This document shows, one piece after another, positions 217-31,579 of a stretch of 64,000 bases of DNA. The notes beneath the pieces are model-generated. The model had not been told where the DNA came from. It made no database searches and saw only the letters and a list, made by a program, of their open reading frames with translations. The translations under genes and the position numbers were made by a program. Each line of letters begins with the position of its first letter. The first letter of the stretch is position 1. This stretch comes from Actinomycetota bacterium (GTDB lineage Bacteria; Actinomycetota; Actinomycetes; JAKEEW01), in contig JBKPTD010000001.1 in the NCBI GenBank assembly GCA_046735375.1, positions 884 to 64,883 on the forward strand, in the 5' to 3' direction.

Positions 217-702
217 ATGGCAGTACGGGCTGCGGCCAAGAACGCTGCGCGACAGCGGTGGCGGTGGCGCTACAGCCGGGTGGCCAGACGGGTTGGCTCG
301 GTCCTTGGTGGACGGGTCGAACGCCGGATCGAACGACATCTGCTCGAGCTCGCCTGGCTGCACGCCAAGCCCGAGATGCTGCAGGTAGACCTCGTCGGCG
401 CGAACCTCGCCGGTGCGGACCTGCAAGGCGCGAACCTCGCCGACGCACAGCTGCAAGACGCGAACCTCGAGGACGCGCAGCTGGAAGATGCGACGCTCAT
501 CAACGCGCAGCTGCAACGCGCGATCCTCACCGACGCGCGACTGGAGCGCGCGAACCTCAGTGGCGCGCAGCTGCAGGACGCGGAGGTAAATGAGGGGACG
601 CGCTGGCCGAAGGGATGGGATCACACTCGCATCGCTGAGGCCGGAGTCCAGTTTGAGGCCGAGCGGGAGGACGATGCCGGCCCGACAGGTCAAGCACTGT
701 AG
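217..702 (+). CDS. pentapeptide-repeat protein
   Basis: Tandem A(D/N)LxxAxL pentapeptide repeats (ANLAGADLQGANLADAQLQDANLEDAQLEDATL...). The true start is uncertain and may be internal (MLQVDL...). Confidence 0.6.
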   Translation: MAVRAAAKNAARQRWRWRYSRVARRVGSVLGGRVERRIERHLLELAWLHAKPEMLQVDLVGANLAGADLQGANLADAQLQDANLEDAQLEDATLINAQLQRAILTDARLERANLSGAQLQDAEVNEGTRWPKGWDHTRIAEAGVQFEAEREDDAGPTGQAL

Positions 703-772
703 CCCCGACCGGATTCGAACCGGCGCTACCGCCTTGAGAGGGCGGCGTGCTAGGCCACTACACAACGGGGCC
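700..772 (-). tRNA. tRNA-Glu (anticodon CUC)
   Basis: The minus-strand sequence GGCCCCGTTGTGTAGTGGCCTAGCACGCCGCCCTCTCAAGGCGGTAGCGCCGGTTCGAATCCGGTCGGGGCT folds as a cloverleaf. It has a CCGCC/GGCGG anticodon stem with loop CTCTCAA and a GGTTCGAATCC T-loop. CCA is not encoded. Ends are +/-2 nt. Confidence 0.75.
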
Positions 773-825
773 ATGTGGCTTTCACCACAAATCGGAACCC
801 AGCCTGAACTGGGCTCCGACTGGAG

Positions 826-897
826 CTGGGGTACCAGGACTCGAACCTAGACTAACGGAGCCAGAATCCGTCGGGCTGCCAATTACCCCATACCCCA
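826..897 (-). tRNA. tRNA-Gln (anticodon CUG)
   Basis: The minus-strand sequence TGGGGTATGG...CGGATTCTGGCTCCG...GGTTCGAGTCCTGGTACCCCAG has the U1:A72 pair typical of bacterial tRNA-Gln. Anticodon loop is TTCTGGC and T-loop is GGTTCGAGTCC. It lies between gltX and tRNA-Glu, as in mycobacteria. Confidence 0.75.
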
Positions 898-1067: not shown

Positions 1068-2579
1068 CTAAGCCGTATTCCGAGCACGCTCGAGGCGTGA
1101 CAGAGTGCGGTCGCGACCGAGCAGTTCGAGGGATTCGAACAGCGGCGGAGATACCCGCCGACCGGTCACCGCGACCCGTACCGGACCGAACGCGAGCTTG
1201 GGCTTGAGGCCGAGGTCGTCGACGAGCGTTCCCCGCAACGCCGCCTCGATCTCGGCGGTTCTCCACTCGGAGACGCCCGACAGTGCATCGCTCGCGGCCG
1301 CCAGGACGGGCCGGGTCTCCTCGGTGAGCAGCCGAGCGGCCGCCTCCTGGTCAACGGTGAAGTGTGCGTCGTCGACAAAGAGGAACCCGACCATGTCAGC
1401 AGCCTCGGTGAGATGGGCGACCCGCTCCTGGATCAGGGGCGCAACCCCATGGACCATCCGGCGCTCTTCATCCGTCGGTACCCGTGACACCAGACCCGCG
1501 TGCTGCAGGAACGGGACAAGGCGCGCTTCGAAGTCAGCCGGAGCCAGAGCCCGGATCCAGTCGCCGTTGATGGCGTCGAGCTTCCGCACGTCAAACCGAG
1601 CCGGGCTGGCGTTAACCCGAGCCAAGTCGAACTCCCGCGCCATCTCCGCTAGCGAGAAGAACTCCCGGTCGTCGCCCGGCGACCACCCCAGCAGAGCGAG
1701 GTAGTTACACATCGCTTCCGGCAGGTAGCCCTTGTTCCTGAATGCGCCGATCGTCGTCGCACCATGTCGCTTGGACAGCTTCGTGTTGTCCGGCCCCATG
1801 ACGAAGGGCAAATGCGCGAAGCGGGGGAGGTCCGCCTCCGCCACACCCATGGCGCGATAGACCGCGACTTGCCGGGGCGTCGACGAGAGCAGATCCTCGC
1901 CCCGTACGACATGGGTGATCTCCATGAGTACGTCGTCCACGGCGACGGCAAGCGTGTACAGCGGGGAGCCATCGGCGCGGGCGAGGACGAAGTCGGGAAC
2001 GTACTCGTGCTCGAAGGTCACCTCGCCGCGGACCAGGTCGACGAAGGTCGTCTTGCCTGGCGGCATGCGAAACCGGAGCACCGGCTTGCGGCCCTCTGCC
2101 TCGTACGCCGCTATCTGTTCGGGACTCAGGCTCCGGCAGCGGCCGTCATAACCAGGGGGCCGACCCTCTGCGCGGGCCTTCTCGCGGCGCTCCTCGAGCT
2201 CCTCCGGAGTGCAGTAGCAGTAGTAGGCGTAGCCCTCGTCGAGGAAGCGCCGGCTCCACTCACGGTAGATGTCCATTCGCTGGCTCTGCAGGTAGGGCCC
2301 GAATCCGCCGCCCACCTCAGGTCCTTCGTCCCAGTCGAGCCCAAGCCAGCGCATCGACTCGATCGCGGCATGGATGTACTCGTCGGTGACACGGGACTTG
2401 TCGGTGTCCTCGATGCGGAAGACAAAGCTGCCGCCGGTACGGCGGGCATATGCCCAGCAGTAGATGGCCGTGCGAATGTTGCCGACATGCAGGTCTCCGC
2501 TGGGCGAGGGCGCGAACCTGACTCTCGTCTCGGCCACGTCAGCGGCCAGCGAAGCCTCGGCCAACGGTCGATCAGTCAC
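1068..2579 (-). CDS. gltX: glutamyl-tRNA synthetase
   Basis: Class I aaRS HIGH region (PSPSGDLHVGN) and KMSKS-like motif (KLSKRHG). Length is 503 aa. tRNA-Gln and tRNA-Glu lie immediately downstream. Confidence 0.9.
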   Translation of the reverse strand: MTDRPLAEASLAADVAETRVRFAPSPSGDLHVGNIRTAIYCWAYARRTGGSFVFRIEDTDKSRVTDEYIHAAIESMRWLGLDWDEGPEVGGGFGPYLQSQRMDIYREWSRRFLDEGYAYYCYCTPEELEERREKARAEGRPPGYDGRCRSLSPEQIAAYEAEGRKPVLRFRMPPGKTTFVDLVRGEVTFEHEYVPDFVLARADGSPLYTLAVAVDDVLMEITHVVRGEDLLSSTPRQVAVYRAMGVAEADLPRFAHLPFVMGPDNTKLSKRHGATTIGAFRNKGYLPEAMCNYLALLGWSPGDDREFFSLAEMAREFDLARVNASPARFDVRKLDAINGDWIRALAPADFEARLVPFLQHAGLVSRVPTDEERRMVHGVAPLIQERVAHLTEAADMVGFLFVDDAHFTVDQEAAARLLTEETRPVLAAASDALSGVSEWRTAEIEAALRGTLVDDLGLKPKLAFGPVRVAVTGRRVSPPLFESLELLGRDRTLSRLERARNTA

Positions 2580-3354
2580 GAGAAACCACCCGGTTGTCCA
2601 ATGTCCCGATTCCCTCGACTGTCACCTCGACCCGATCCCCGGCAACGATCGGACCGACGCCCGCCGGAGTACCGGTGAGGATGACATCGCCAGGAAGCAG
2701 TGTGAAGGCCGCGGAGATGTACGCGACCAGCGTGGGGATGTCGAAGATCAGTTTTGACGTCCGAACGTCCTGCTTGACCTCATCGTTCACGGCCGTACGC
2801 AGCGCCAGGTCCGCGGAATCGAGTTCGGTCTCCAGCCAAGGGCCGAGCGGGCAGAAAGTGTCGAAGCCCTTCGCCCGCGCCCACTGATCGTCGCTACGTT
2901 GAAGATCACGCGCTGTCACGTCATTCCCGACGGTGTACGCGAAGATGACGTCGGCCGCCCGCTCGCGGGGGACATCGCGGCACAACTTGCCGATCACGAC
3001 CGCTAGCTCGCCCTCGAAATGGACCTCGTGGGACTGGCGCGGAAGGACGATCGCATCGCCTGGACCTATCACTGCCGTGTTCGGCTTGAGGAACAGCAGT
3101 GGCTCCTCCGGGATGACCTGACCGAACTCCGCGGCGTGGTCGGCATAGTTTCGGCCCACCCCGACGATCTTGCTGCGCGGGATGACGGGGGCGAGCAGGC
3201 GTACATCGGCCAAGGGCAGCCGCTCGCCGGTGAACTGCACCGGCCGGTAGAGCGGGTCGCCGGCCACCACCGCCACCAACTCGTCGTCGGGTGGGCCTTC
3301 CACCACGCCGTACCTGGGCTCCCCGCCCTCCGTGGTGAACCTCGCGATCCGCAC
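2572..3354 (-). CDS. fumarylacetoacetate hydrolase (FAH) family protein
   Basis: 260 aa with FAH-fold motifs (…IVGVGRNYADHAAE…GELAVVIGK…). It is positionally equivalent to the FAH-family gene next to gltX in mycobacteria. Confidence 0.8.
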   Translation of the reverse strand: MRIARFTTEGGEPRYGVVEGPPDDELVAVVAGDPLYRPVQFTGERLPLADVRLLAPVIPRSKIVGVGRNYADHAAEFGQVIPEEPLLFLKPNTAVIGPGDAIVLPRQSHEVHFEGELAVVIGKLCRDVPRERAADVIFAYTVGNDVTARDLQRSDDQWARAKGFDTFCPLGPWLETELDSADLALRTAVNDEVKQDVRTSKLIFDIPTLVAYISAAFTLLPGDVILTGTPAGVGPIVAGDRVEVTVEGIGTLDNRVVSRD

Positions 3355-3363
3355 CCGCCAACC

Positions 3364-5031
3364 CTAGTGTCCCGTGTCCGAGGGGCCGGGCACCTCCGTC
3401 ACACCGGCCCGGATGAGGCCAAAGGTGACGGCGTCGTCCAGCGCCTGCCACGACGCCTCGATCACGTTCTCGTGGACCCCAACGGTGGACCAGGTGTCCA
3501 TCCCGTCGCTCGTCTCCACGAGGACCCGCGTCACGGCCCCGGTGCCGTGTGCGCCCTCCAGGATGCGCACCTTGAAGTCGACGAGCTCCAGGCCGGCGAG
3601 TTGCGGGTAGATCCGCTCGAGCGCCTGCCGGAGCGCTGTGTCCAGCGCGTGCACTGGCCCGTTCCCCTCACCGGTAGCGACGATCCGCTCCCCCTTCGCG
3701 ATCAGCTTGACCGTCGCCTCGCTCACCGCGGTGTGCGGTGCGTCCGGACCGACCCCCGGGCGGTTCTCCACGATCACTCGGTACGACTCGACCTCATAGA
3801 AGCGCGGCCGCGACCCGTCGACCTCCTCGCCGAGCAGCAAAGCGAATGATGCATCGGCCGCTTCGAAGGTGTAGCCGGCCGCCTCCAGCGCCTTCACCCG
3901 CTCAGTGATTCGGGTCAGCGTGGTCCGATCGCCGGCCAGCTCATAGCCGAGCTCTCGGCCCTTCAGCTCGATGGACGCCCGCCCTGCCATGTCGGAGACG
4001 AGCATGCGCATGTCGTTCCCGACTGAACCGGGCTCGATGTGCTGGTAGAGGCTGGGATCCACCTTCACGGCGCTGGCGTGCAAGCCAGCCTTGTGCGCGA
4101 ATGCGGACAGGCCGACGTAGGGCTGGTGCTGGTTCGGGGCGACGTTCGTGACCTCCGCCACTGCATGAGCGACCCGGGCCATCTCGCCGAGCGCACCAGG
4201 CGGGAGGACCTGGCGGCCCTTCTTAAGCTCCAGGTTGGCCACAACGGAGAAGAGATTGGCATTGCCGCACCGCTCCCCATAGCCGTTGGCCGTGCCCTGG
4301 ACATGGGTGACCCCAGCGTCGACGGCGGCGAGCGAGTTAGCGACCGCGCAGGCGGTGTCGTCGTGGCAGTGGATTCCCAGCCGGCCCGAGGTGCGAGCGA
4401 GGACATCGTCGACGACCTCGGCGAGCGCTCCCGGCAGCATCCCGCCGTTGGTGTCGCAGAGCACGACAACGTCCGCGCCTGCTTCGGCGGCAAGGCGAAC
4501 GACCTCCAGCGCATATGCCGGATCGGCCTGATACCCGTCGAAGAAGTGCTCGGCATCGAGGAAGACCCGCCGCCCTTCCGCGCGGAGGTGTTCGATCGTG
4601 TCCCTGATCATGGCGAGGTTCTCTGCAGGCGTCGTCCGCAGCGCCAACTCAACGTGGCGGATGTGGGTCTTGGCCACCAGCGTCACGATCGGCGCCCGAG
4701 AGTCGCGCAGCGCGCCGACGAGCGGATCGTCGGCGGCTTTGATCCCGGGCCGACGGGTCGCTCCGAAGGCCGCGAGCGTGGCCTGCCGGAGATCCAGGTC
4801 CGTCTGGGCCCGGCGGAAGAATTCGGTGTCCTTCGGACTCGCGCCTGGCCAGCCACCCTCGATGAAGCCGACGCCGAGCTCATCCAGGTGCCGCGCGATG
4901 GTCAGCTTGTCCGCGACGGACAGGGACAGACCCTCTTGCTGGGCGCCGTCGCGCAGCGTGGTGTCGTACACATGAAACGCATCGTCGGGCACCGTGCGCT
5001 GGCGGACTGCTGCATGCTCCTCGTCACCCAT
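3364..5031 (-). CDS. 2-isopropylmalate/citramalate synthase family protein (CimA/LeuA-like, with LeuA-dimer C-terminal domain)
   Basis: N-terminal DRE-TIM barrel motifs (YDTTLRDGAQQEG, HCHDDTACAVANS). The C-terminus has a LeuA dimerisation/regulatory domain. The ORF-track start at 5145 was rejected. The ATG at 5031 (MGDEEH) gives about 555 aa, typical of actinobacterial citramalate synthase annotations. Confidence 0.85.
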   Translation of the reverse strand: MGDEEHAAVRQRTVPDDAFHVYDTTLRDGAQQEGLSLSVADKLTIARHLDELGVGFIEGGWPGASPKDTEFFRRAQTDLDLRQATLAAFGATRRPGIKAADDPLVGALRDSRAPIVTLVAKTHIRHVELALRTTPAENLAMIRDTIEHLRAEGRRVFLDAEHFFDGYQADPAYALEVVRLAAEAGADVVVLCDTNGGMLPGALAEVVDDVLARTSGRLGIHCHDDTACAVANSLAAVDAGVTHVQGTANGYGERCGNANLFSVVANLELKKGRQVLPPGALGEMARVAHAVAEVTNVAPNQHQPYVGLSAFAHKAGLHASAVKVDPSLYQHIEPGSVGNDMRMLVSDMAGRASIELKGRELGYELAGDRTTLTRITERVKALEAAGYTFEAADASFALLLGEEVDGSRPRFYEVESYRVIVENRPGVGPDAPHTAVSEATVKLIAKGERIVATGEGNGPVHALDTALRQALERIYPQLAGLELVDFKVRILEGAHGTGAVTRVLVETSDGMDTWSTVGVHENVIEASWQALDDAVTFGLIRAGVTEVPGPSDTGH

Positions 5032-5073
5032 CGCGGATCCTCGCCTCCTGCTCCGTTTGTGCCTCACCCAACG

Positions 5074-5105
5074 AAAAAGACCCCTCGCGGATGCGAAGGG
5101 TCTGC
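5074..5105 (-). terminator. intrinsic terminator/attenuator hairpin in the 5' leader of the cimA/leuA-like gene
   Basis: Minus strand AGACCCTTCGC-ATCC-GCGAGGGGTCT followed by TTTTT. It is an 11-bp stem with one mismatch, 43 nt upstream of the ATG and 18 nt downstream of the leader-peptide stop. Confidence 0.6.
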
Positions 5106-5122
5106 GCGCCATCCGTCGTGCT

Positions 5123-5167
5123 CTAGGTGCCGGCGCGCCTGCCAATAATGATCATGTACATAGACAT
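5123..5167 (-). CDS. Ile-rich leader peptide (MSMYMIIIGRRAGT) of an attenuator
   Basis: 14-codon ORF with SD GGGAGG 9 nt upstream. It has three consecutive isoleucine codons (ATC ATT ATT), which are rare in this GC-rich genome. A terminator follows directly. Confidence 0.6.
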   Translation of the reverse strand: MSMYMIIIGRRAGT

Positions 5168-5170
5168 CGC

Positions 5171-5282
5171 TGTCAGCCTCCCATAACACCCGGGAGATGG
5201 ACAGCTCGTCTCAGGATGTGAGTGCGCGGTACCGGTAGTCCGCTGACATGGCGTGTCAGCGTGGTGTGAGCCGGGTGTCAGC
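5171..5282 (+). promoter_or_regulatory. TGTCAGC heptamer cluster with 7-5-7 palindrome GCTGACA-TGGCG-TGTCAGC in the divergent promoter region
   Basis: TGTCAGC occurs at 5171, 5254 and 5276. The last two are 22 bp apart. An inverted copy at 5242 forms a perfect palindrome with 5254-5260. The cluster ends 43 nt upstream of the ABC ATPase start. Confidence 0.35.
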
Positions 5283-5324
5283 GGCGGTCGGCACCTTGGG
5301 TGGCGTACGAAGGGAGTCGTTTCG

Positions 5325-6332
5325 ATGACGTACGCCATCGAGGCGAGCGGCCTGGTCAAACGGTTCGGTCGAACGACCGCGCTGGCCGGCGTCGACCTCG
5401 CCGCACAGCCGGGCACCGTCCTCGGCGTCCTCGGCCCTAACGGCGCAGGCAAGACGACGGCGGTTCGCATCCTGGCCACTTTGATCAAGCCGGATGAGGG
5501 ACGTGCGACCGTCGGTGGTTTCGACGTCGCCAGTGACGCGGCGGAGGTCCGATCCCTGATCGGGCTTACCGGCCAATTCGCCGCCGTCGACGAAGATCTG
5601 ACCGGGACGGAGAACCTCGTTCTCATCGGACGGCTGCTCGATCTTTCTCGCCGTGATGCCAAGCGCCGGGCCACTGAGCTACTGGATCGCTTCGAGCTTT
5701 CCGACGCAGCGAAGAGGCTCGCCAGGACGTATTCCGGCGGCATGCGGCGCAGGCTCGACCTCGCAGCCAGCTTGGTGGGAAATCCCTCGGTGATCTACCT
5801 CGACGAGCCGACAACCGGGCTGGACCCGCGAGCCCGTGCCAGTGTCTGGGATGTCATCCGCGGGCTGACCGCCGACGGCGTGACGGTGCTGCTCACCACG
5901 CAGTACCTGGAAGAGGCCGATCAGCTCGCCGACGAGATCGCCGTCTTCGACCATGGCCGCGTCGTGGCCACCGGTACAGCGAACCAACTCAAGGCCAAGG
6001 TCGGGGGGCAAACGCTGGTGGTCAGACCACGGGACGAGATCGATCTGGACCTGGTGGAGCGGATGGTCGCCGAACTGACCCGACGTGACCCGATCCGAGA
6101 CGCCGAGCGCCGGGAACTCACGGCTGACGTCACCGACCCGGCCGTTCTGGCCGCTCTGGTCCAGCGGCTCGACGCCTTCCAGATTCCGGTGACCGAGGTC
6201 GGCCTGCGACCGCCCAGCCTGGACGACGTCTTCTTCGCCTTGACCGGCCACGCAGCGGTGACGGAGGAAGCCCCCACCGCGGCCGCAGAAACAGTAGAGA
6301 GTGCGAGTGCAGCGAACGGGAGCATCAGATGA
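5325..6332 (+). CDS. ABC transporter ATP-binding protein (DrrA-like)
   Basis: Walker A (GPNGAGKTT), ABC signature (YSGGMRRR) and Walker B (IYLDEPTTGLD). RBS GAAGGGAG precedes the ATG at 5325. The stop overlaps the next gene as ATGA. Confidence 0.85.
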   Translation: MTYAIEASGLVKRFGRTTALAGVDLAAQPGTVLGVLGPNGAGKTTAVRILATLIKPDEGRATVGGFDVASDAAEVRSLIGLTGQFAAVDEDLTGTENLVLIGRLLDLSRRDAKRRATELLDRFELSDAAKRLARTYSGGMRRRLDLAASLVGNPSVIYLDEPTTGLDPRARASVWDVIRGLTADGVTVLLTTQYLEEADQLADEIAVFDHGRVVATGTANQLKAKVGGQTLVVRPRDEIDLDLVERMVAELTRRDPIRDAERRELTADVTDPAVLAALVQRLDAFQIPVTEVGLRPPSLDDVFFALTGHAAVTEEAPTAAAETVESASAANGSIR

Positions 6333-7153
6333 CCGCGATGACAACCGCCGAGCGTTCATTGACGCCACTGGTCGCACCGGGCGTGCGCAACCGGCTGCCC
6401 TCCACGGCCCGCCATGGTCTGACGCTCGCGTGGCGAGCGCTGCTGAAGACGCGGCACAACCTCGAGTCGCTGCTTGATCTGGTACTTCAGCCGATCGTCT
6501 TCGTGGTGATGTTCGTGTTCCTCTTCGGAGGCGCGGTCAGCGGCGACTGGCGCAGCTACCTGCAGTTCGTGCTGCCGGGTATCGCCGTCCAGACCGCGAT
6601 CTTCGGGTCGATGGGCACCGGGCTGACATTGAACACCGATATCACCAAGGGGGTGTTCGACCGTTTCAAGAGCATGCCGATGTCGCGGTCTGCGCCCCTG
6701 GTCGGCGGTGTGCTCGGCGACATCCTTCGCTATGTGATCGGGGTCGGGATTGTCCTCGGGTTCGGCATCGCGCTCGGCTTCCGTGTGCAGACCGGGGTTC
6801 TGGGTGTGGTTGGCGCTTTCGCGTTGATGCTCGTCTTCGCGCTGGCGATGTGCTGGGTCGCCGTTCTCCTCGGCGTGCTCGCCAAGAGCCCCCAAAGCAT
6901 GCAGGCACTCGCCTTCATCTTCCTATTCCCGCTGACCTTCGGCAGCAACATCCTCGCGCCGGCCCAGACGATGCCGGGCTGGCTGCAGGCCTGGGTCAAC
7001 ATCAATCCGGTGTCCAAGCTGACCGAGGCCGTCCGCGGGCTCCTCGTCAGTGGTCCCGTTGCTGGGCCGACCGTGGCAACACTGCTGTGGGCTGCCCTGA
7101 TCGTGGCGATCTTCCTGCCCATCTCCACACTGGTCTACCGCAGGCGTATCTAA
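6329..7153 (+). CDS. ABC-2 type transporter permease (DrrB-like)
   Basis: 274-aa polytopic membrane protein with six predicted TM segments. It is translationally coupled to the ATPase. Confidence 0.8.
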   Translation: MTAMTTAERSLTPLVAPGVRNRLPSTARHGLTLAWRALLKTRHNLESLLDLVLQPIVFVVMFVFLFGGAVSGDWRSYLQFVLPGIAVQTAIFGSMGTGLTLNTDITKGVFDRFKSMPMSRSAPLVGGVLGDILRYVIGVGIVLGFGIALGFRVQTGVLGVVGAFALMLVFALAMCWVAVLLGVLAKSPQSMQALAFIFLFPLTFGSNILAPAQTMPGWLQAWVNINPVSKLTEAVRGLLVSGPVAGPTVATLLWAALIVAIFLPISTLVYRRRI

Positions 7154-10100
7154 GGGTTCGTGACCCGCTTCTCAGGGAACGGTCCGTGCTCGCGAATCAG
7201 GCTTGCGATCGCCTCCCGTGACATGGCGCGCCCCTCGTCGTACGCCGCTGCGTAGGAGTCTTCGCCCACAGCGTCCCTGGCCTGCTCGATAGTTCGCACC
7301 GTCGCCGGGTTGCCCAGGTCGGGCATCCCGCGGACAGCTGCCGCCATGCCGAGCAGCCGAGCAGCGTCAGTCCACCGGTTTCTCGCCGCCGCAGCGGTGG
7401 CGGCCGCATCCAATGCGCCACCGGTTACGGGCATGTCCCTTGTCTCGACTCCAATCAGCGCTGCCTCGGCGACCCGCTGCTCCGCGGTTGCGTATTCACC
7501 CTCGGAGATGTCGACGCAGGCAGCGGCCGTGAGGACCATGCCGCGTATCTGCCGGGGGAAGCTCTGTACCACGTCGCAGAGGGCGAGCGCCTTGTCCAGG
7601 CGGGCGCGCGCGTCTGCCAGATCGCCGCGCAGCCAGGAAATGCCAGCCACTGCCGTCTGGATGAACACCTCGGTGTCCGTCGCACCCGCCGCCGTGTCGA
7701 CATGGCCGGCCGCATCGAGCGAGCCTTCTCGCCGGCGTGCGCGCATCGCGCTGTCGATGTCAGCCTGCGCGCCCGCCATGTCGCCCGTGCGTGCCCGCAA
7801 CACGGCGAGCTGGATGAATTCCTTGACGATGTCGTCTCGCGCACCGACTTCGGTCGCCAACCCCAAGGCGATTTCGCGGGCATCGATGGCGCCGGCCGCG
7901 TCACCGCGAGTGGCGCGCAACTCAGCAATCGCGCTCGTCGCATTGGCCAGGCCCCACCGCTCGCCGAGTGCTTGGAACTCGACGAGGGAGGCGGCCAGTT
8001 CTTCCTCGCCACCGATCGCGTCGCCGTCGTTCAGCTTGAGCCAGCCGCGCAGCAGCCTGCCGATCGCCCGTACCCACGGATCCGGACTCTTGGCGACCTG
8101 GTCGAGGCCGCGGTGTGCCTCCTCGTAATCTCCGTCGAACATCGGGAAGAGCGGCTCGGAGAGCATGGTCGCCAGCCGCCGCTGCGCCGGCGGGATGTCC
8201 TTGACGAGCTCGCGGGTCTCCTGGGCGGCCGCGCGCCCCGCCCCGAAGTCGTCGGCCGAGCCATAGCCGAGGGCGAGAAGCGCGGTGGCTTCGGCACGGT
8301 CGACGGCCGGGACGTCACCCGGAACCTCCAGCGCCTCCTTGATCCACGTCAGCGCCACTTCCGGTGCGCGCATCAGCCAGCCCCAGCCGAGCGCTGTGAC
8401 GAGCCGGACGGCGGTCCGCGCGTCTGCTGAGTCGGTCGCCCAGCGGAGAGCGGCAAGGAAGTTGTCCTCCTCGGTGCGCAGCCTGGCCAGCCAGTGGAGC
8501 TGGCCGGCTCTGCGCAGCTCAGGCTCCAGCCTCTCCGCCAGCGCGACGAAGTACGCCGCGTGCGCCCGGCGGAATCGCTCGGCTTCACCTGACTCGGCGA
8601 GCCGATCAGCGGCAAAGGCGCGGATCGTCTCCAGCATGCGATAGCGGGTTGCCAGCTCCCCCGCGAGCAGAACCAACGACTTGTCGACGAGGGAGCCAAC
8701 ATGCTCGACCACGTCCTCGGGTCGCACGTCGTCCCCGGCGCAGATCTCCTCGACCGCCTCGAGGTCGGCTCCGCCCGCAAAGACAGCCAGCCGTCGGGCG
8801 ACGGCCCGCTCCGCCTCGCTGAGCAGATCCCAGCTCCACTCCACCACCGCCGCCAGCGTCCGATGCCGAGGCAGCGCGGTACGGCTGCCTCCGGTCAGCA
8901 GCCGGAAGCGGCCTCCAAGCCGATCAGCGATCTCTCCGATCGAAAGCGACCGGAGCCGTGCGGCGGCTAGCTCGATCGCGAGTGGCAGGCCGTCAAGCCG
9001 CCTGCATACCTCGACAACGGCGTCGGCCGATTCGGCGGTCAACGAGAATTCAGGCCGTGCGGCCGCTGCACGATCGAGAAACAGCCGTACCGCCGGATAC
9101 GTACTCGCTTCTTCGGCATTCGCGCCAGCCGGTGGCAGCGCCAGCGGAGCAACGGGGAAGAGGTTCTCGCCCACGATGCCGAGCGGTTCCCGACTGGTCG
9201 CGATGATCCGCAGGTCGGAGCCGAGGGCCAGCAGCTGCTCGGCAAGCCGCGCTGACGGCTCGATGAGGTGCTCACAGTTGTCGAACAGCAGGAGCATCTT
9301 GCGGCCGGCGACCGCAGCGACGAGCCGCTGCATTGTGCCCTGCCGGACTGCTGGGCTGACCGATCGCTGCGTCTCGAGGACGCGGACCTCCCCCATGCCG
9401 GCGACGTCGAGGACCGCCTGCGGGACCTCCAGCGGGTCGGTGACCGGGGCCAGCTCCACCATCCACACGCCGTCTGGTGTGCTCTGCACGAGACGCTGGG
9501 CCGCCTCCTCCGCGAGGCGCGTCTTGCCCGACCCTCCGGGCCCGACCAGGGTGACCAGCCGAGAGTCCGCGATCAGCTTGCCCAGCCTGGCGACCTCTTC
9601 CGTGCGACCGACGAAGCTGGTGAGCTGCGCACGCAGGTTGGTTTGTGGCGGCTCGCTCGCGGCTGACGGAGCAGCCGGGAGGAGCCGGGGATCCTGCCTG
9701 AGTACGGCGAGATGGACCTGCTCGAGATCCGGTGAAGGGTCGATGCCCAGATCGTCGGCGAGTCTGCGACGCAGCCGGTCGTACGCTGCCAGCGCATCGG
9801 CCTGCCGCCCACTGCCGTACAGCGCTCGTATCAGCTGGCTGGACAGCCTCTCGCGGAGAGGGTTCTCGGCAGTGAGTGCATCCAGCTCAGCAACCAGCTC
9901 CGCGTGCCTGCCGAGTCGAAGATCCGTCTCGATCCGGTCTTCGAGTACGGCAAGGCGAAGCTCCGCGAGCCGTGCGGCGGGAACTGCGGCGAACGGCACG
10001 TCCACGAGGTCGGCCAGCGGCGCTCCGCGCCAGAGGCTGAGCGCCTCATGCAGCAGTCCTGATGCGGTGGCCGACTCCCCTGCCGCGAAGGCGGCACGAC

Positions 10101-10428
10101 CGCGGGAAGCCAGCCGCTCGAAGGCTGCACTGTCCACGTCTGCCGCGTCGATGGCCAGCCGGTAGCCACCAGGCTGGGCGATGATGGTCTCCGAATCGCC
10201 CGCAGGCAACGCCCGTCGCAGCCGGGAGATCAAGGACTGCAAAGCGTTGACGGCCGCCGCGGGAGGGTCATTTCCCCAGATCCCGTCGATCAGCCGGTCG
10301 ACCGTGACCAGCCGTCCTTGAGCCAAAGCAAGTTGGGCGATCACCGCGCGCAGCCGCAAGCCCGCGAGGTCGATGCGCCGCCCGCTGCCGGAGTACACCT
10401 CGACCGGCCCCAGCAGCCCAACCCGCAT
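7150..10428 (-). CDS. AfsR/SARP-family transcriptional regulator (OmpR-type wHTH + BTAD + NB-ARC ATPase + TPR)
   Basis: The N-terminus (LLGPVEV…RLRAVIAQLAL…DRLIDGIWG…YRL) is the SARP winged-helix DNA-binding domain, followed by a BTAD. A P-loop (VTLVGPGGSGKTRLA) and long TPR-like C-terminal region follow. Length is 1092 aa. Confidence 0.85.
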   Translation of the reverse strand: MRVGLLGPVEVYSGSGRRIDLAGLRLRAVIAQLALAQGRLVTVDRLIDGIWGNDPPAAAVNALQSLISRLRRALPAGDSETIIAQPGGYRLAIDAADVDSAAFERLASRGRAAFAAGESATASGLLHEALSLWRGAPLADLVDVPFAAVPAARLAELRLAVLEDRIETDLRLGRHAELVAELDALTAENPLRERLSSQLIRALYGSGRQADALAAYDRLRRRLADDLGIDPSPDLEQVHLAVLRQDPRLLPAAPSAASEPPQTNLRAQLTSFVGRTEEVARLGKLIADSRLVTLVGPGGSGKTRLAEEAAQRLVQSTPDGVWMVELAPVTDPLEVPQAVLDVAGMGEVRVLETQRSVSPAVRQGTMQRLVAAVAGRKMLLLFDNCEHLIEPSARLAEQLLALGSDLRIIATSREPLGIVGENLFPVAPLALPPAGANAEEASTYPAVRLFLDRAAAARPEFSLTAESADAVVEVCRRLDGLPLAIELAAARLRSLSIGEIADRLGGRFRLLTGGSRTALPRHRTLAAVVEWSWDLLSEAERAVARRLAVFAGGADLEAVEEICAGDDVRPEDVVEHVGSLVDKSLVLLAGELATRYRMLETIRAFAADRLAESGEAERFRRAHAAYFVALAERLEPELRRAGQLHWLARLRTEEDNFLAALRWATDSADARTAVRLVTALGWGWLMRAPEVALTWIKEALEVPGDVPAVDRAEATALLALGYGSADDFGAGRAAAQETRELVKDIPPAQRRLATMLSEPLFPMFDGDYEEAHRGLDQVAKSPDPWVRAIGRLLRGWLKLNDGDAIGGEEELAASLVEFQALGERWGLANATSAIAELRATRGDAAGAIDAREIALGLATEVGARDDIVKEFIQLAVLRARTGDMAGAQADIDSAMRARRREGSLDAAGHVDTAAGATDTEVFIQTAVAGISWLRGDLADARARLDKALALCDVVQSFPRQIRGMVLTAAACVDISEGEYATAEQRVAEAALIGVETRDMPVTGGALDAAATAAAARNRWTDAARLLGMAAAVRGMPDLGNPATVRTIEQARDAVGEDSYAAAYDEGRAMSREAIASLIREHGPFPEKRVTNP

Positions 10429-10480: not shown

Positions 10481-11590
10481 CTAAAGAACCTTGTGGATCC
10501 AGCCGTGCGGGTCCGGCGCGGCGCCGTGCTGGATGTCGAGCAGTGTCTCGCGCAGCCGCATCGTCGCCGGACCCGAGCCGCCGTCCCCTACCGTCCACTC
10601 GGCGCCGACCTTCTTGACCGATCCGACGGGCGTGATGACTGCCGCCGTACCACAGGCGAAGACCTCGCTGATCGAGCCATCTGCGTTGCCTGCCCGCCAC
10701 TCGTCGACGCTGATCCGGCCCTCCTCGACGTCGTATCCGAGATCCTTCGCAAGGGTCAGAAGCGAGTCGCGGGTCACACCGGACAGGAGCGTTCCGGTGA
10801 GCGACGGCGTCATGACCCGCGCAGTGCTCCCCGATCCGTACACGAAGAAGAGGTTCATGCCCCCCATCTCCTCCACCCAGCGGTGCTCGATCGCGTCGAG
10901 CCAGACAACCTGGTCACAACCCTGGGCGGCGGCTTGAGCCTGGGCGACGAGGGACCCGGCATAGTTGCCGGCGCATTTCGCCTCACCCGTCCCGCCAGGC
11001 GCGGCGCGGCTGTAGTCCTCAGAGAGCCAGACGGTGACCGGCTTGACGCCGCGGGGGAAGTAGGCGCCGGCGGGCGAGGCGATGAGGACGAAGAGGCACT
11101 CGTTCGCAGGGCGGACCCCGAGACCCACCTCGGTCGCCATCATGAACGGGCGCAGGTAGAGGCTGTGCTCGTGGCTTTCTGGCACCCAGTCCCGATCCTG
11201 GGTGACGAGCGCGTGGGCAGCATCGATGAAGAGGGATTCGGGCAGCGACGGCAGGGCGAGCCGGGCGGCGGAGCGCTGGAAGCGCCGGGCGTTCTCATGC
11301 GGCCTGAAGAGCGCGACGGTCCCATCGACCTGTTTGTACGCCTTAAGGCCTTCGAAGATCAGCTGGCCGTAGTGGAGCGCCATCGTCGCTGGGTCGAGCT
11401 CGAAGCTGCCGTAGGGCCGCAGCTGAGCGTCATGCCATCCCCGGTCGGCACTCCATCGCGCGGTGACCATGTGATCGGTGAAGTAGCGGCCGAAGCCAGG
11501 GTCGGCTACCCGGCGAGCGCGCTCATCTGCGGCGAGCGGCGACGCCGTCGGCCGCAGCTCGATCTCCACGTCAGTGGTCCCGTATGTCAT
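10481..11590 (-). CDS. ilvE: branched-chain amino acid aminotransferase
   Basis: Class IV aminotransferase motifs (FTDHMV…YGQLIFEGLKAY…). Start moved to the ATG at 11590 (MTYGTTDVE), giving about 369 aa. Confidence 0.9.
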   Translation of the reverse strand: MTYGTTDVEIELRPTASPLAADERARRVADPGFGRYFTDHMVTARWSADRGWHDAQLRPYGSFELDPATMALHYGQLIFEGLKAYKQVDGTVALFRPHENARRFQRSAARLALPSLPESLFIDAAHALVTQDRDWVPESHEHSLYLRPFMMATEVGLGVRPANECLFVLIASPAGAYFPRGVKPVTVWLSEDYSRAAPGGTGEAKCAGNYAGSLVAQAQAAAQGCDQVVWLDAIEHRWVEEMGGMNLFFVYGSGSTARVMTPSLTGTLLSGVTRDSLLTLAKDLGYDVEEGRISVDEWRAGNADGSISEVFACGTAAVITPVGSVKKVGAEWTVGDGGSGPATMRLRETLLDIQHGAAPDPHGWIHKVL

Positions 11591-11766
11591 CTCGCTACGC
11601 CCTTCGCTTGCGTATGTCACACCGATCACCTGAAGGGAACGGTAGCCGACCCATCCCAAGATGTGGACGCCTACGGCCCCCGACCGCCACAACCCGTTCT
11701 TTCCGCAGAAAACGCGTCCTCACCTGGTGAAGATCAATGGGAGGCCGTATCCCGACGGGAGGGCGA

Positions 11767-22990: not shown

Positions 22991-23040
22991 GATCTTCGTC
23001 GCCTCATCTGAATCCGCGTCGTGCTGGCTCGGGGAACGAA

Positions 23041-23073
23041 AAACCCCCAGGCCCTGGCGGGCACGTGGGGGTC
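23041..23073 (-). terminator. intrinsic terminator of the ilvB leader (attenuator)
   Basis: Minus strand ACCCCCACGTGCCCGCCAGGGCCTGGGGGT followed by TTTTT. It lies between the leader-peptide stop and the ilvB ATG. Confidence 0.6.
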
Positions 23074-23094
23074 GCGCGCTGGCTGCCGCTCGGG

Positions 23095-23136
23095 TCAGCC
23101 CGCGCGCCTACGAAGTACGAGAATTCGGTGCTGCAT
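23095..23136 (-). CDS. ilvB leader peptide [13 protein letters not shown]
   Basis: 13-codon ORF with consecutive Ile-Leu-Val-Leu codons. It closely resembles the Streptomyces ilvB leader MRTRILVLGKRVG. Confidence 0.65.
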
Positions 23137-23230
23137 CGGATCAGACGCTTTCGTACGGCGGGCTGGACTGTCAAGCACGTGGGACGCCCGTCTCAGGATT
23201 CAGACGCGTCTGCGCAGGGAGGTCCTGGAA

Positions 23231-30295: not shown

Positions 30296-31579
30296 GTGCG
30301 GCGGCCGACGAATCCACTGAAGCTTCCCGGTGGCGCCTGGGCACCGCTGGCCGCGGACTTCTACGCACTCAGAGCCAGCGCGCCACTGCCGCATGTGCCG
30401 ACCCCGGACGAGATCCTGCGATCCCCCGACGGTGCGACACCCGATGACCAGACGGCCTCCACCCCCCGCCGGGTCATGCTCTGGGTGGTTCTCCCGCTTC
30501 TGATGGCCGTCGCGGGGTTCATCTTGCTGAAGGCCGTCGGCGCTGAGATCGGCAGTGGCGGGCTTGTGGTTGGAACGATCTTCGCTTTACTGCCCGTCGT
30601 GCCGGTCCTCGCCGTTTTCCTGTGGCTCGACCGGAATGAGCCGGAGCCGGTGCCGTATCTCGTCTTCGCAGTCGCCTGGGGCGCGACTGTGGCTGGTGTG
30701 ATCGCCCTGGCGTTGAATTCGGCAGGCATTGAATTCCTGCGCCAGTACGGCCAGAAGGATGTCGCGATCGGCGCCGTGTTCATCGCACCCTGGGTCGAGG
30801 AGGCCGCCAAGGGAGCAGGAGTTGCGCTGCTCGCGTTGCGAAGGCGGCGGGAGTTCGACGGAGTGGTCGACGGGCTAGTTCTCGCGGGCTTGTGCGGACT
30901 CGGCTTCGCCTTTGTCGAGAACGTGCTCTACTTCGGCCGGGCGTACACGGACACGGTCGCCGAGCACGGCACCTTCGGCGGGCTCGGCAGTGTTGGTGCG
31001 GTGTTCGTCCTCCGTGGGCTCGGCGCGCCGTTCGCCCATCCCATGTTCACCGCCGCAATCGGCGTTGGCTTCGGCATCGCGGCGTCAACCGACCGCCCAC
31101 GGGTGCGGGTGGCGGCGCCTGTGATCGGCTATCTCTGCGCTGTCGCCTTGCATGCGTTGTGGAATCTCTCGGCTGCCGGTGGCCTCGCCGGCTTCCTCGT
31201 CGTGTACGGGCTGGTCATGGTTCCGCTGTTCGCCGCGTACGTCGGCCTGATGATCTGGGCACGGCGGCGGGAGGGGAGGGTGGTCGCGCAATGGCTGCCG
31301 GAATACGGCATGGCCGGCTGGTTCAGCCTCGATGAGGTGGCGCGGCTGGCATCGATGCATGAGCGGCGCCGTGCTTTGGTCGCGGCGGGGAGGTACGGCG
31401 GATGGGCGGGACGCCGGGCCACAAGTAAGTTTCAGCACATCGCGACCGAGCTGGCCTTCCTCCGCAATCGGGCGGGACGGCACTCACTTGGACCGGACTT
31501 CGCCGATCGGGAGCACGAGCTGCTGGTCGCCGTCGCCGCGAGCCGTGCCCGCCTCCCGGTCACTCCACTGACCACGTAG
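30296..31579 (+). CDS. PrsW-family intramembrane metalloprotease
   Basis: EExxK motif (WVEEAAKG), FxxxH (FAHPMF) and HxxxN (ALHALWN) lie within a multi-TM protein. GTG start at 30296 with GAGAGG upstream. Alternative start is ATG 30476. Confidence 0.7.
   Translation: MRRPTNPLKLPGGAWAPLAADFYALRASAPLPHVPTPDEILRSPDGATPDDQTASTPRRVMLWVVLPLLMAVAGFILLKAVGAEIGSGGLVVGTIFALLPVVPVLAVFLWLDRNEPEPVPYLVFAVAWGATVAGVIALALNSAGIEFLRQYGQKDVAIGAVFIAPWVEEAAKGAGVALLALRRRREFDGVVDGLVLAGLCGLGFAFVENVLYFGRAYTDTVAEHGTFGGLGSVGAVFVLRGLGAPFAHPMFTAAIGVGFGIAASTDRPRVRVAAPVIGYLCAVALHALWNLSAAGGLAGFLVVYGLVMVPLFAAYVGLMIWARRREGRVVAQWLPEYGMAGWFSLDEVARLASMHERRRALVAAGRYGGWAGRRATSKFQHIATELAFLRNRAGRHSLGPDFADREHELLVAVAASRARLPVTPLTT

What the first reader, a model, noticed from the sequence alone, without database searches (positions are those of the whole stretch)
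5032..5170. Isoleucine-codon leader peptide plus terminator upstream of the CimA/LeuA-family synthase: a putative Ile-sensing attenuator
The 5' region of the cimA/leuA-like gene carries a 14-codon ORF, MSMYMIIIGRRAGT, with a GGGAGG SD. It contains three consecutive Ile codons (ATC ATT ATT), which is striking in a genome at about 70% GC. Eighteen nt after its stop there is a strong intrinsic terminator on the minus strand: an 11-bp GC-rich stem, AGACCCTTCGC…GCGAGGGGTCT, followed by TTTTT. That terminator sits 43 nt before the synthase ATG. This is the textbook layout of ribosome-mediated attenuation. Ile control would fit a citramalate synthase feeding the threonine-independent isoleucine pathway rather than a leucine-controlled LeuA. 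The element is not in the ORF track and would normally go unannotated.
Basis: partly seen in the sequence, partly recalled or inferred. Interest (0 to 1): 0.7.

Follow-up and report, generated by a model that had tools for sequence, protein, structure and literature searches.

The report
Isoleucine-codon leader attenuator of cimA
A tiny upstream reading frame with rare isoleucine codons, a conserved hairpin and a transcription terminator sit in front of the citramalate synthase gene in many actinomycetes. Together they most likely switch this isoleucine-pathway gene on when isoleucine runs short, as a sister of the known ilvB leader that has not been described as such.

Summary
On the minus strand lie a 14-codon ORF (5167-5123, MSMYMIIIGRRAGT*), an 11-bp terminator (5103-5078 plus U-run) and a citramalate synthase gene (TIGR00977, 625 bits) starting at 5031.

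It is not chance. The element precedes cimA in all 80 related genomes examined, and two helices show compensatory changes. The leader Ile codons are 66% the rare ATT, against 0.5% in cimA itself.

Published S. lividans data place a leaderless transcription start exactly on the orthologous small ORF and a Term-seq 3' end at its terminator. Neither paper interprets the element.

The "GGGAGG SD" aligns with the -10 promoter box, so the transcript is probably leaderless. No antiterminator overlapping the terminator exists.

Instead, a GC-clamped hairpin (P1) begins 5 nt after the last Ile codon and abuts the terminator with no linker. A stalled ribosome would leave P1 intact; a ribosome reaching the stop codon would melt it. 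This matches the logic proposed for the M. tuberculosis ilvB1 attenuator.

A covariance model of the cimA leader also detects ilvB leaders, including the one in this window (23136-23039).

Verdict: a new, Ile-specific member of a known kind. How P1 blocks termination is unresolved.

The parts
5207..5217 (-). Upstream motif ATCCTGAGACG, about 27 nt before the -10 box. It may be a transcription-factor site or a promoter-upstream element; its function is unknown.
   Evidence: The window holds only two exact copies, here and upstream of the ilvB leader at 23189-23199. TGAGA[CT] is present at a fixed distance in 60 of 71 cimA loci, against 0.5% of background windows. It is also present in the S. 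lividans promoter sequence.
5175..5180 (-). -10 promoter hexamer GAGGCT. The predicted transcription start is at or next to A5167.
   Evidence: It aligns with CAGACT/CACACT, which lies 6-10 nt before the leader start codon in all lineages. In S. lividans the aligned GCCAGACTG was assigned as the -10 box of a leaderless TSS at the first base of the small ORF. This is an inference by homology for the window.
5123..5167 (-). Leader ORF, 14 codons plus stop: MSMYMIIIGRRAGT*.
   Evidence: Read directly. An in-frame start-Ile-stop ORF is conserved in the related loci. The peptide N-terminus is not conserved between lineages. In some Streptomyces the region after the Ile codons is read in another frame from the same nucleotides, so the RNA rather than the peptide is what is conserved there.
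5144..5152 (-). Regulatory isoleucine codons ATC ATT ATT.
   Evidence: Every aligned leader has 2-3 Ile codons (1 in a few divergent ones). ATT accounts for 95 of 145 leader Ile codons, against 6 of 1105 in the cimA coding sequences.
5104..5138 (-). Hairpin P1. The 5' arm (5138-5131) lies inside the ORF (codons RRAG) and the 3' arm is 5111-5104. The stop codon sits in the loop. P1 is the proposed ribosome-sensitive anti-terminator element.
   Evidence: It appears in the MFE folds. In 65 leaders it is 96% paired and 4 pairs show compensatory changes; the four basal G-C pairs are invariant. P1 starts 5 nt after the last Ile codon in 39 of 65 leaders and 8 nt after in 21 of 65.
5070..5103 (-). 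Intrinsic terminator. The stem is 5103-5078 with loop AUCC, followed by a U-rich tail from 5077. It abuts P1 with no linker.
   Evidence: Found by the consensus scan. It is 100% paired in 65 leaders, with 2 pairs showing compensatory changes. The linker between P1 and the terminator is 0 nt in 64 of 65 leaders. The S. lividans Term-seq 3' end at 2497125 lies at the orthologous U-run.
3364..5031 (-). cimA, citramalate synthase (555 aa). An SD-like GAGGA lies at 5042-5038.
   Evidence: TIGR00977 equivalog at 625 bits against a cutoff of 450; all LeuA models are below their cutoffs.

Best explanation
This is a leader-peptide (ribosome-mediated) transcription attenuator that makes cimA expression depend on the supply of charged tRNA-Ile.

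Transcription starts at or next to the leader ATG, giving a leaderless mRNA. A 70S ribosome translates the 14-codon ORF while RNA polymerase transcribes hairpin P1 and the terminator that follows it directly.

Geometry. P1's first base pair lies 5 nt after the last Ile codon. That is position +12 from the first base of the P-site codon when that Ile codon is in the A site, just outside the stretch of mRNA that a ribosome unwinds.

- When Ile-tRNA is scarce, the ribosome waits at the rare ATT/ATC codons and P1 stays folded.
- When Ile-tRNA is plentiful, the ribosome runs on to the stop codon, which lies in or just after P1's 5' arm, and P1 is melted.
- With P1 melted, the terminator forms and a transcript of about 95 nt is released.
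- With P1 intact, next to a stalled ribosome, termination is suppressed and cimA is transcribed.

What is shown here: the parts, their conservation and covariation, their spacing, the codon bias, the homology to ilvB leaders, and (from published data) the TSS and premature 3' end in an orthologue.

What is inferred: translation of the ORF, the Ile response, and above all how P1 counteracts the terminator. The two helices share no nucleotides. My proposal is steric. The terminator's 5' arm is tied with no linker to a GC-clamped helix and a stalled 70S ribosome, so its basal pairs cannot be drawn into the RNA exit channel of the polymerase.
For: - Anatomy in the window.
- CimA identity of the downstream gene.
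- The element is present in all 80 genomic cimA loci from Streptosporangiales, Streptomyces, Kitasatospora and MAGs. Held-out loci are found by the covariance model at E from 3e-31 to 7e-9.
- P1 and the terminator covary: 96% and 100% paired, with 6 pairs changed on both sides; slid controls drop to 33-62% paired.
- Only the ORF frame and the Ile codons are kept. The N-terminal peptide varies between lineages. Some Streptomyces read the P1 region in another frame from the same nucleotides.
- Rare ATT is 66% of leader Ile codons against 0.5% in cimA.
- Spacing is conserved: 5 or 8 nt between the last Ile codon and P1 in 60 of 65 leaders, and 0 nt between P1 and the terminator in 64 of 65. The stop codon lies at least 10 nt into P1, or, in minimal variants (L001, L002, L164), directly before it. 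In both cases only a ribosome that has passed the Ile codons invades P1.
- S. lividans orthologue: leaderless TSS at the first base of the 51-nt ORF SLIV_10862 (PMC8079986 supplements). A Term-seq 3' end at 2497125 defines a 'cis-regulatory' transcription unit 2497125-2497260 (PMC6742748 supplements).
- Paralogy with ilvB leaders. The window's own ilvL ([13 protein letters not shown]) has the same build. So do about 25 metagenomic ilvB leaders, and all of these are hit by the cimA-leader model.
- For M. tuberculosis ilvB1 the same logic was proposed: the ribosome at the stop codon masks the anti-terminator, and stalling at LVVI lets it form. Changing LVVI to AAAA gave low, uninducible expression (PMC13236596).
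Against: - P1 and the terminator are not mutually exclusive by base pairing. Every thermodynamic fold keeps both. The anti-termination step therefore rests on an untested steric argument.
- If the basal AGA:UCU pairs are counted as part of the U-tract region, the effective linker is 3 nt rather than 0, which weakens the steric case.
- For the paralogous S. coelicolor ilvB leader, mutation of the regulatory codons was reported to have no effect on regulation (Craster 1999, as cited in PMC1262725).
- More distant ilvB leaders have linkers of 4-8 nt.
- In Streptomyces a second TSS lies between the terminator and cimA. At least there, cimA does not depend only on read-through.
- No experiment on the cimA leader itself exists. 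Translation of the ORF and an Ile response are not shown in any organism.
Confidence: 0.55

Rival explanations
1. Classical four-segment attenuation. The stalled ribosome masks segment 1 (the P1 5' arm), and the freed segment 2 pairs with the terminator's 5' arm as an antiterminator.
For: - This is the textbook precedent (trp, his, leu, thr in enterobacteria).
- If the ribosome covers mRNA up to +15, a stall at the last Ile codon would fray 1-4 basal pairs of P1.
- Weak lineage-specific alternatives exist: CGGAUGGCG/CGCAUCCG in the window, and GCGcAG/CUCGC in MAGs and Streptomyces.
Against: - Segment 2 abuts segment 3 with no loop in 64 of 65 leaders.
- The terminator 5' arm shows no above-chance complementarity to upstream RNA (z = -0.46).
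- The terminator persists in all constrained folds.
- The window's candidate helix is broken in L161 (95% identical CimA) and absent in L163.
- The mini-hairpin is lost in Streptosporangiaceae, where the terminator covaries CGC/GCG to CAC/GUG.
- In Streptomyces and in minimal variants, a ribosome stalled at Ile cannot reach P1 at all.
Confidence: 0.1
2. The small ORF is not an amino-acid sensor. The terminator is a constitutive or factor-controlled attenuator, or the short transcript is a small RNA. Regulation would then come from the promoter (for example a factor binding the conserved TGAGAC motif) or from a protein recognising the highly conserved GCGCAGACCUCUC sequence.
For: - Regulatory-codon mutations had no effect in the S. 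coelicolor ilvB leader (cited in PMC1262725).
- The terminator 5' arm and the P1 base are conserved at sequence level across orders, more than structure alone requires.
- A shared upstream 11-mer precedes both the cimA and ilvB leaders.
- An abundant terminated transcript exists in S. lividans.
Against: - This does not explain the in-frame start and stop codons.
- It does not explain the invariant presence of Ile codons, and only Ile for cimA against I/L/V for ilvB.
- It does not explain the extreme ATT bias or the fixed 5-nt spacing to P1.
- The M. tuberculosis ilvB1 codon mutant lost induction.
Confidence: 0.15
3. The AT-rich ATCATTATT is a -10 promoter box, so cimA transcription starts inside the 'leader' and the ORF is never made.
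For: The consensus scan found CTGACA-17-GATCAT at 5176-5148. AT-rich hexamers are rare in a 67% GC genome.
Against: - Two independent S. lividans TSS maps place the start 18 nt upstream of the Ile codons, at the ORF's first base. Neither reports a start just downstream of them.
- The distance from the upstream conserved hexamer to ATTAT varies from 23 to 27 nt between lineages, while the reading frame is always kept.
Confidence: 0.03

Closest known systems
Actinobacterial ilvB leader attenuators: M. tuberculosis ilvB1 uORF (PMC13236596), Streptomyces ilvL MRTRILVLGKRVG* (PMC8079986; Seliverstov 2005, PMC1262725), and the ilvL in this window at 23136-23039
   Same: - A leaderless ORF of about 13 codons, often ending in ...RRAG*/...KRVG*.
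- A GC-clamped hairpin that starts about 5 nt after the last regulatory codon.
- A terminator that abuts this hairpin.
- A proposed logic in which a ribosome at the stop codon masks the anti-terminator.
- The cimA-leader covariance model hits ilvB leaders (window 23036-23145 at 29.4 bits, E = 2.5e-7).
   Different: - The regulatory codons are Ile only (II or III, mostly rare ATT), not a mix of I, L and V.
- The controlled gene is cimA, not ilvBNC.
- The terminator sequence AGACCUCUCGC...GCGAGGGGUCU is specific to cimA.
- For M. tuberculosis the authors describe mutually exclusive folds. Here P1 and the terminator share no nucleotides.
Corynebacterium glutamicum ilvBNC attenuator (ilvB-II motif; three-hairpin model, PMC10272879, PMC11857589)
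   Same: An actinobacterial, (near-)leaderless leader peptide with branched-chain amino acid codons, placed upstream of an intrinsic terminator.
   Different: The Corynebacterium model has three hairpins, with an antiterminator that overlaps the terminator. Only two conserved helices are found here, with no overlap.
Enterobacterial trp/his/leu/thr/ilvGMEDA leader-peptide attenuators
   Same: A short ORF enriched in codons of the pathway's end product, followed by a terminator. Ribosome position decides read-through.
   Different: - Those leaders use an SD-led ORF.
- Their regulatory codons lie inside segment 1, so stalling masks it.
- They have a distinct 2:3 antiterminator that overlaps the terminator.
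- None of these three features holds here.
S. lividans TK24 SLIV_10862 / cis-regulatory TU 2497125-2497260
   Same: This is the orthologous element: a 51-nt ORF upstream of cimA (SLIV_10860), with a mapped leaderless TSS and a premature 3' end.
   Different: It is only catalogued. It is absent from that paper's table of eight leader peptides, and the texts I could read give it no function.

Membership tests
Leader-peptide (ribosome-mediated) transcription attenuator | A short ORF upstream of a biosynthetic gene, enriched in codons for the pathway's end product | tested here: met
   The window has three consecutive Ile codons in a 14-codon ORF. Related leaders have 2-3 Ile codons. The downstream gene is citramalate synthase, on the pyruvate route to isoleucine.
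Leader-peptide (ribosome-mediated) transcription attenuator | An intrinsic terminator between the leader ORF and the structural gene that stops transcription in vivo | tested here: met
   The hairpin plus U-run is present and covaries. In S. lividans a Term-seq 3' end lies at the orthologous U-run. In vivo termination in the window's own organism was not tested.
Leader-peptide (ribosome-mediated) transcription attenuator | An alternative antiterminator structure that shares nucleotides with the terminator | tested here: not met
   Constrained folds always keep the terminator. Complementarity of the terminator 5' arm to upstream RNA is at chance level. Candidate helices are not conserved.
Leader-peptide (ribosome-mediated) transcription attenuator | An RNA structure whose formation depends on where the ribosome stands on the leader ORF | tested here: met
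   The P1 5' arm is made of the ORF's last codons. Its base lies 5 or 8 nt after the last Ile codon, and the stop codon is in or next to P1.
Leader-peptide (ribosome-mediated) transcription attenuator | The leader ORF is translated, and read-through responds to supply of the cognate amino acid | not testable with these tools
   Indirect support only: a leaderless TSS on the start codon in S. lividans, and reporter data for the paralogous M. tuberculosis ilvB1 leader.
Actinobacterial ilvL-type leader (ilvB attenuator family) | Shared sequence and structure: a leaderless ORF of about 13 codons, a GCGCGC-clamped hairpin after the regulatory codons, and an abutting terminator | tested here: met
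   Pairwise alignment with the window's ilvL. The cimA-leader covariance model gives full-length hits on about 25 ilvB leaders. Spacer and linker lengths are the same.
Actinobacterial ilvL-type leader (ilvB attenuator family) | Located upstream of ilvB(N/H)C, with mixed Ile/Leu/Val regulatory codons | tested here: not met
   The element lies upstream of cimA and has Ile codons only. It is therefore a paralogue, not an ilvL.
T-box riboswitch (Ile) | Match to the T-box covariance model (specifier loop and T-box sequence) | tested here: not met
   No Rfam 15 hit in 4500-5800 at E <= 10 other than two chance matches elsewhere. There is no hit in the whole window at gathering score, and none in three orthologous loci.
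Any described Rfam cis-regulatory family (Leu/Thr/His/Trp leaders, ilvB-OMG and others) | Match to the family's covariance model | tested here: not met
   Searches gave no match.
Citramalate synthase CimA (TIGR00977) | Score above the curated equivalog cutoff, and above the scores for LeuA models | tested here: met
   625.1 bits against a cutoff of 450. The best LeuA model scores 248 bits against a cutoff of 517.

The most novel reading that the evidence does not exclude
The cimA and ilvB leaders of actinomycetes may represent a distinct attenuator design. In it the anti-terminator helix does not compete with the terminator for nucleotides. It blocks termination by position instead. A GC-clamped hairpin is pinned against a stalled ribosome and joined with no linker to the terminator's 5' arm. 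This would keep the terminator's basal pairs from forming inside the polymerase's RNA exit channel. If true, this would also explain why classical antiterminators have been hard to find in actinobacterial attenuators, and why mutational results in Streptomyces looked paradoxical.
Probability: 0.25. Interest if true: 0.7.

Novelty: new member of a known kind. Interest (0 to 1): 0.45.

Why it matters
It gives the citramalate (threonine-independent) route to isoleucine in actinomycetes its own amino-acid-specific control element, separate from the multivalent ilvB leader. That route feeds precursors such as 2-oxobutyrate, used in many Streptomyces secondary metabolites.

The element is strongly conserved, is absent from Rfam, and is uninterpreted in the transcriptome papers that captured it. 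Naming it would improve annotation, and it offers a compact Ile-responsive part for engineering.

The cimA/ilvB pair has identical architecture but different regulatory codons. That makes it a natural experiment for working out how two-hairpin actinobacterial attenuators function. The same mechanism has recently been linked to drug vulnerability in M. tuberculosis.

Tried and rejected
1. Rfam 15 search of the region, the whole window and three orthologous loci: no family matched.
2. Classical 2:3 antiterminator. I folded with the ribosome at each Ile codon, at the stop codon, or absent, in 14 cimA leaders and 2 ilvB leaders. The terminator was always kept.
3. Co-transcriptional folds ending at the terminator loop, with a shuffle test. 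Pairing of the terminator 5' arm with upstream RNA was at chance level.
4. The window-specific helix CGGAUGGCG/CGCAUCCG is broken by a U-to-C change in L161 and absent in L163.
5. GGUCUGC (leader codons 4-6) pairing with GCAGACC is present only in Streptosporangiaceae, and a stalled ribosome would cover it.
6. The mini-hairpin GCGcAG/CUCGC is lost where the terminator covaries to CAC/GUG.
7. Extending P1 into the terminator would need a 3x3 internal loop for two G-C pairs, and those G residues sit inside a stalled ribosome.
8. The upstream TGAGAC motif pairing with the terminator 5' arm shows no covariation (GUGAGA occurs with both UCUCAC and UCUCGC). Its fixed distance to the -10 box points to a role in DNA.
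9. A conserved functional peptide or arrest peptide (...GRRAG) is rejected. Five Streptomyces leaders read the same nucleotides in another frame (...SAPVRSDR*), and the N-termini differ between lineages.
10. GGGAGG as a Shine-Dalgarno sequence is rejected in favour of the -10 box, by alignment with the mapped S. lividans promoter.
11. The internal promoter hit CTGACA-17-GATCAT has no matching TSS in S. lividans.
12. Literature searches for a described cimA leader found nothing.
13. The search for homologous proteins listed only hits of at least 74% identity, so it did not extend the taxonomic range. One close relative (P0003) had no retrievable DNA.
Full report
**1. What is in the window**

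All features lie on the minus strand.

- ORF: ATG 5167-5165 TCT ATG TAC ATG ATC ATT ATT GGC AGG CGC GCC GGC ACC TAG 5125-5123, encoding MSMYMIIIGRRAGT*.
- Terminator: 19 nt after the stop codon lies an 11-bp hairpin, AGACCCUUCGC-AUCC-GCGAGGGGUCU (5103-5078), followed by UUUU. It was the only terminator-like site in 4700-5700.
- The downstream gene starts at ATG 5031.
- That gene is a citramalate synthase. It scores 625 bits on TIGR00977 (cutoff 450), and all 2-isopropylmalate synthase models fall far below their cutoffs.
- The gene upstream (start 5325, plus strand) is a divergent DrrA-like ABC ATPase. The 294-nt intergenic region must therefore hold the cimA promoter.

**2.

P1 pairs G5138-G5131, the codons for RRAG, with U5111-C5104. 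The stop codon sits in the P1 loop. The 3' arm of P1 is followed, with no unpaired base, by the first base of the terminator stem.

**3. The element is conserved**

A scan of one genome per species returned at least 588 cimA relatives, of which the best 80 were kept (68-78% identity). They come from Streptosporangiales, Streptomyces, Kitasatospora, Yinghuangia and many MAGs.

- 72 loci show at once a small ORF with II or III followed by G(S)RRAG-like codons, in front of a conserved GCGCAGACCUCUC... terminator.
- The remaining eight carry divergent versions, such as VLGHVITQ*, MTVRQIIF*, MTTAIMIPKARRAG* and VPATTMITG....
- A covariance model built from 65 distinct leaders finds every locus that was not used to build it, at E from 3e-31 to 7e-9. 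It also finds three newly fetched close relatives.

On the 65-sequence alignment:

| Helix | Cells paired | Pairs with compensatory changes |
|---|---|---|
| P1 | 96% | 4 |
| Terminator | 100% | 2 |

Sliding the 3' partners by 1-3 columns drops pairing to 33-62%. The number of independent substitution events is small, because the sequences are very similar.

**4. What is and is not conserved points to a translated sensor ORF plus an RNA structure, not a functional peptide**

- The N-terminal residues differ between lineages: MFYGLL-, MTSGR-, VLSFAM-, MSMYM-.
- In five Streptomyces leaders a 1-nt difference puts the P1 region in another frame (...SAPVRSDR*), while the nucleotides stay the same.
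- A start codon, the reading frame and the Ile codons are always kept.
- The Ile codons are 95 ATT and 50 ATC. The adjacent cimA coding sequences use 1087 ATC, 6 ATT and 12 ATA.
- A close relative (L163) uses ATC ATC ATC, so ATT is favoured but not obligatory.

**5. The 'SD' is most likely the promoter**

In all lineages a hexamer of the form nAnnnT lies 6-10 nt before the leader start codon: CAGACT, CACACT, and GAGGCT in the window at 5180-5175.

- The S. lividans TK24 re-annotation (PMC8079986, supplementary tables) lists a novel 51-nt CDS, SLIV_10862 (2497258-2497208). It lies directly upstream of SLIV_10860, a 1605-nt gene in the cimA position.
- Its TSS is at 2497258, flagged 'leaderless'. 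The -10 box is GCCAGACTG and the -35 box is TGGACA.
- 51 nt is exactly the length of VLSFAMIIGSRRAGPQ* plus its stop codon.
- By alignment, the window's GGGAGG overlaps this -10 box and would not be in the transcript. This is an inference by homology. It is not proven for this organism.

**6. The terminator works in vivo in the orthologue**

An independent dRNA-seq and Term-seq study of S. lividans (PMC6742748 supplements) gives three relevant records:

- a primary TSS at 2497260;
- a 3' end at 2497125 of the class 'cis-regulatory';
- a transcription unit 2497125-2497260 labelled 'Cis-regulatory'.

The implied length of about 134 nt matches the distance from the start codon to the U-run in Streptomyces leaders (131-135 nt). 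Neither paper discusses the element. It is missing from the first paper's table of eight leader peptides, which does list ilvL as MRTRILVLGKRVG*.

Five literature searches found no description of a cimA leader. The 2005 survey of actinobacterial attenuators covers ilvB, leuA, trp and cys, but not cimA. Papers in subscription journals could not be searched.

**7. It is a paralogue of the ilvB leader**

The window also contains ilvD-ilvB-ilvN-ilvC-serA...leuB-ilvE on the same strand. Between ilvD and ilvB lies [13 protein letters not shown] (23136-23095), and its build matches the cimA leader:

- the hairpin's 5' arm is made of the RRAG codons;
- the hairpin begins 5 nt after the last regulatory codon;
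- a terminator (ACCCCCA...UGGGGGUUUUU) abuts it.

Eighty metagenomic ilvB loci were fetched. The actinobacterial ones show the same design: leader peptides with L/V/I runs, spacers mostly of 4-5 nt, a GCGCG clamp and a linker of 0-2 nt. The cimA-leader model gives full-length hits on about 25 of them and on the window's ilvL (29.4 bits, E = 2.5e-7).

**8. Mechanism: what fails**

The classical scheme needs an antiterminator that shares bases with the terminator. I found none.

- With the ribosome absent, on any regulatory codon, or on the stop codon, the minimum-energy fold always contains the complete terminator.
- Folding only the RNA made before the terminator's 3' arm, the energy gained by pairing the 5' arm upstream is -2.4 kcal/mol, against -2.0 for shuffled arms (z = -0.46, 57 leaders).
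- The best candidate in the window (CGGAUGGCG with CGCAUCCG) is broken in a relative with 95% identical CimA and absent in an 82% relative.
- Other candidates are lineage-specific and do not follow the terminator's covariation.
- Segment '2' cannot fold back on segment '3', because no base lies between them in 64 of 65 leaders.

**9. Mechanism: what the geometry says**

- The last Ile codon is followed by 5 nt (39 leaders), 8 nt (21), 7 nt (3) or 4 nt (2) before P1's first pair.
- With that codon in the A site, P1 therefore starts at +12 or later from the first base of the P-site codon.
- From established work on the ribosomal mRNA helicase, which I recall rather than tested here, duplexes are opened up to about +11. 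A ribosome waiting for Ile-tRNA would leave P1 intact, and the next translocations would open it.
- The stop codon lies 10-16 nt into P1 in most leaders.
- In the minimal variants L001, L002 and L164 the stop codon directly precedes P1. There the only difference between 'stalled at Ile' and 'at the stop codon' is whether P1's base is invaded.

This is the logic proposed for the M. tuberculosis ilvB1 attenuator. There the ribosome at the stop codon masks the anti-terminator and stalling at LVVI lets it form. The LVVI-to-AAAA reporter was low and uninducible, and deleting the terminator relieved attenuation (PMC13236596). P1 therefore sits in the place of the anti-terminator.

**10. The unresolved step**

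P1 and the terminator share no nucleotides, and both are stable together in solution models. My proposal is an inference and is untested.

- The terminator's 5' arm is tied, with no linker, to a helix whose four basal pairs are invariant G-C.
- In the starved state that helix is jammed against a 70S ribosome.
- The weak basal pairs of the terminator are A-U, G-C/G-U and A-U, all invariant. They would have to be pulled into the polymerase's RNA exit channel, and they cannot be.

Points against this proposal:

- If AGA:UCU is counted as part of the U-tract region, the linker is 3 nt.
- More distant ilvB leaders have linkers of 4-8 nt.
- Regulatory-codon mutations in the S. coelicolor ilvB leader reportedly had no effect.

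**11. Rivals**

- A constitutive or factor-controlled terminator or small RNA remains possible (0.15). It does not explain the frame, the Ile-only codons, the ATT bias or the spacing.
- The classical model is given 0.10.
- An internal promoter at ATCATT is contradicted by both TSS maps (0.03).

**12. Verdict**

The finding is real, conserved and biologically sensible. It is an Ile-specific leader-peptide attenuator of cimA, paralogous to the actinobacterial ilvB leader. It has been captured but not interpreted in published transcriptomes, and it is absent from Rfam.

It is a new member of a known kind. The most novel open reading is a non-overlapping, position-dependent anti-terminator.

Noticed in passing
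window 23039-23136 (minus strand): A second leader-peptide attenuator lies upstream of ilvB. The ORF is [13 protein letters not shown] (23136-23095). Its hairpin has the RRAG codons as the 5' arm and abuts a terminator ending in UUUUU (23043-23039). The consensus terminator scan missed it because the loop is long.
   Followed up: yes
window 5207-5217 and 23189-23199 (minus strand); cimA loci L003-L080: The 11-mer ATCCTGAGACG occurs exactly twice in the window, each time upstream of a branched-chain amino acid leader promoter. TGAGA[CT] sits 55-63 nt before the first Ile codon in 60 of 71 cimA loci, against 0.5% of background windows. It is also present in the mapped S. lividans promoter and in 15 of 35 ilvB loci. 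It is absent in L163 and L164. This may be a shared transcription-factor site; no factor has been identified.
   Followed up: partly
Streptomyces loci such as L064 1372-1500; S. lividans 2497074: Streptomyces carries a conserved segment of about 130-150 nt between the terminator and cimA (...GAGCGCGAGGGAYCAT...GGTGGAGCCGGTCATTCCGGTAGACCGAGATCC...). S. lividans has a second mapped TSS there, 55 nt before cimA. The window has only 42 nt at this position and no such segment. There is no Rfam match.
   Followed up: partly
window 5325-10428: In many relatives ilvE lies directly upstream of the cimA leader (L041, L163). In the window, a DrrA-like ABC transporter pair (5325-7153, plus strand) and a 1092-aa SARP/BTAD-STAND regulator (7150-10428, minus strand) are inserted between ilvE (10481-11692) and cimA.
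   Followed up: no
window 700-897 (minus strand): Two tRNA genes lie downstream of gltX (1068-2579). cimA is followed by an FAA-hydrolase-family gene (2572-3354). The order cimA, FAA hydrolase, gltX is shared with the closest relatives.
   Followed up: no
window 5148-5176 (minus strand): A sigma-70-like consensus hit (CTGACA-17-GATCAT) lies inside the leader ORF. No TSS corresponds to it in the S. lividans maps, so it is probably a by-product of the AT-rich Ile codons.
   Followed up: yes
window 30308-30423 (minus strand): The cimA-leader covariance model gives a weak full-length hit here (9.8 bits, E = 0.56), inside a plus-strand coding region. This is probably noise.
   Followed up: no
L061 about 1260-1270: The leader in this MAG contig is interrupted by a run of N, so only the 3' part of the element could be scored.
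   Followed up: no
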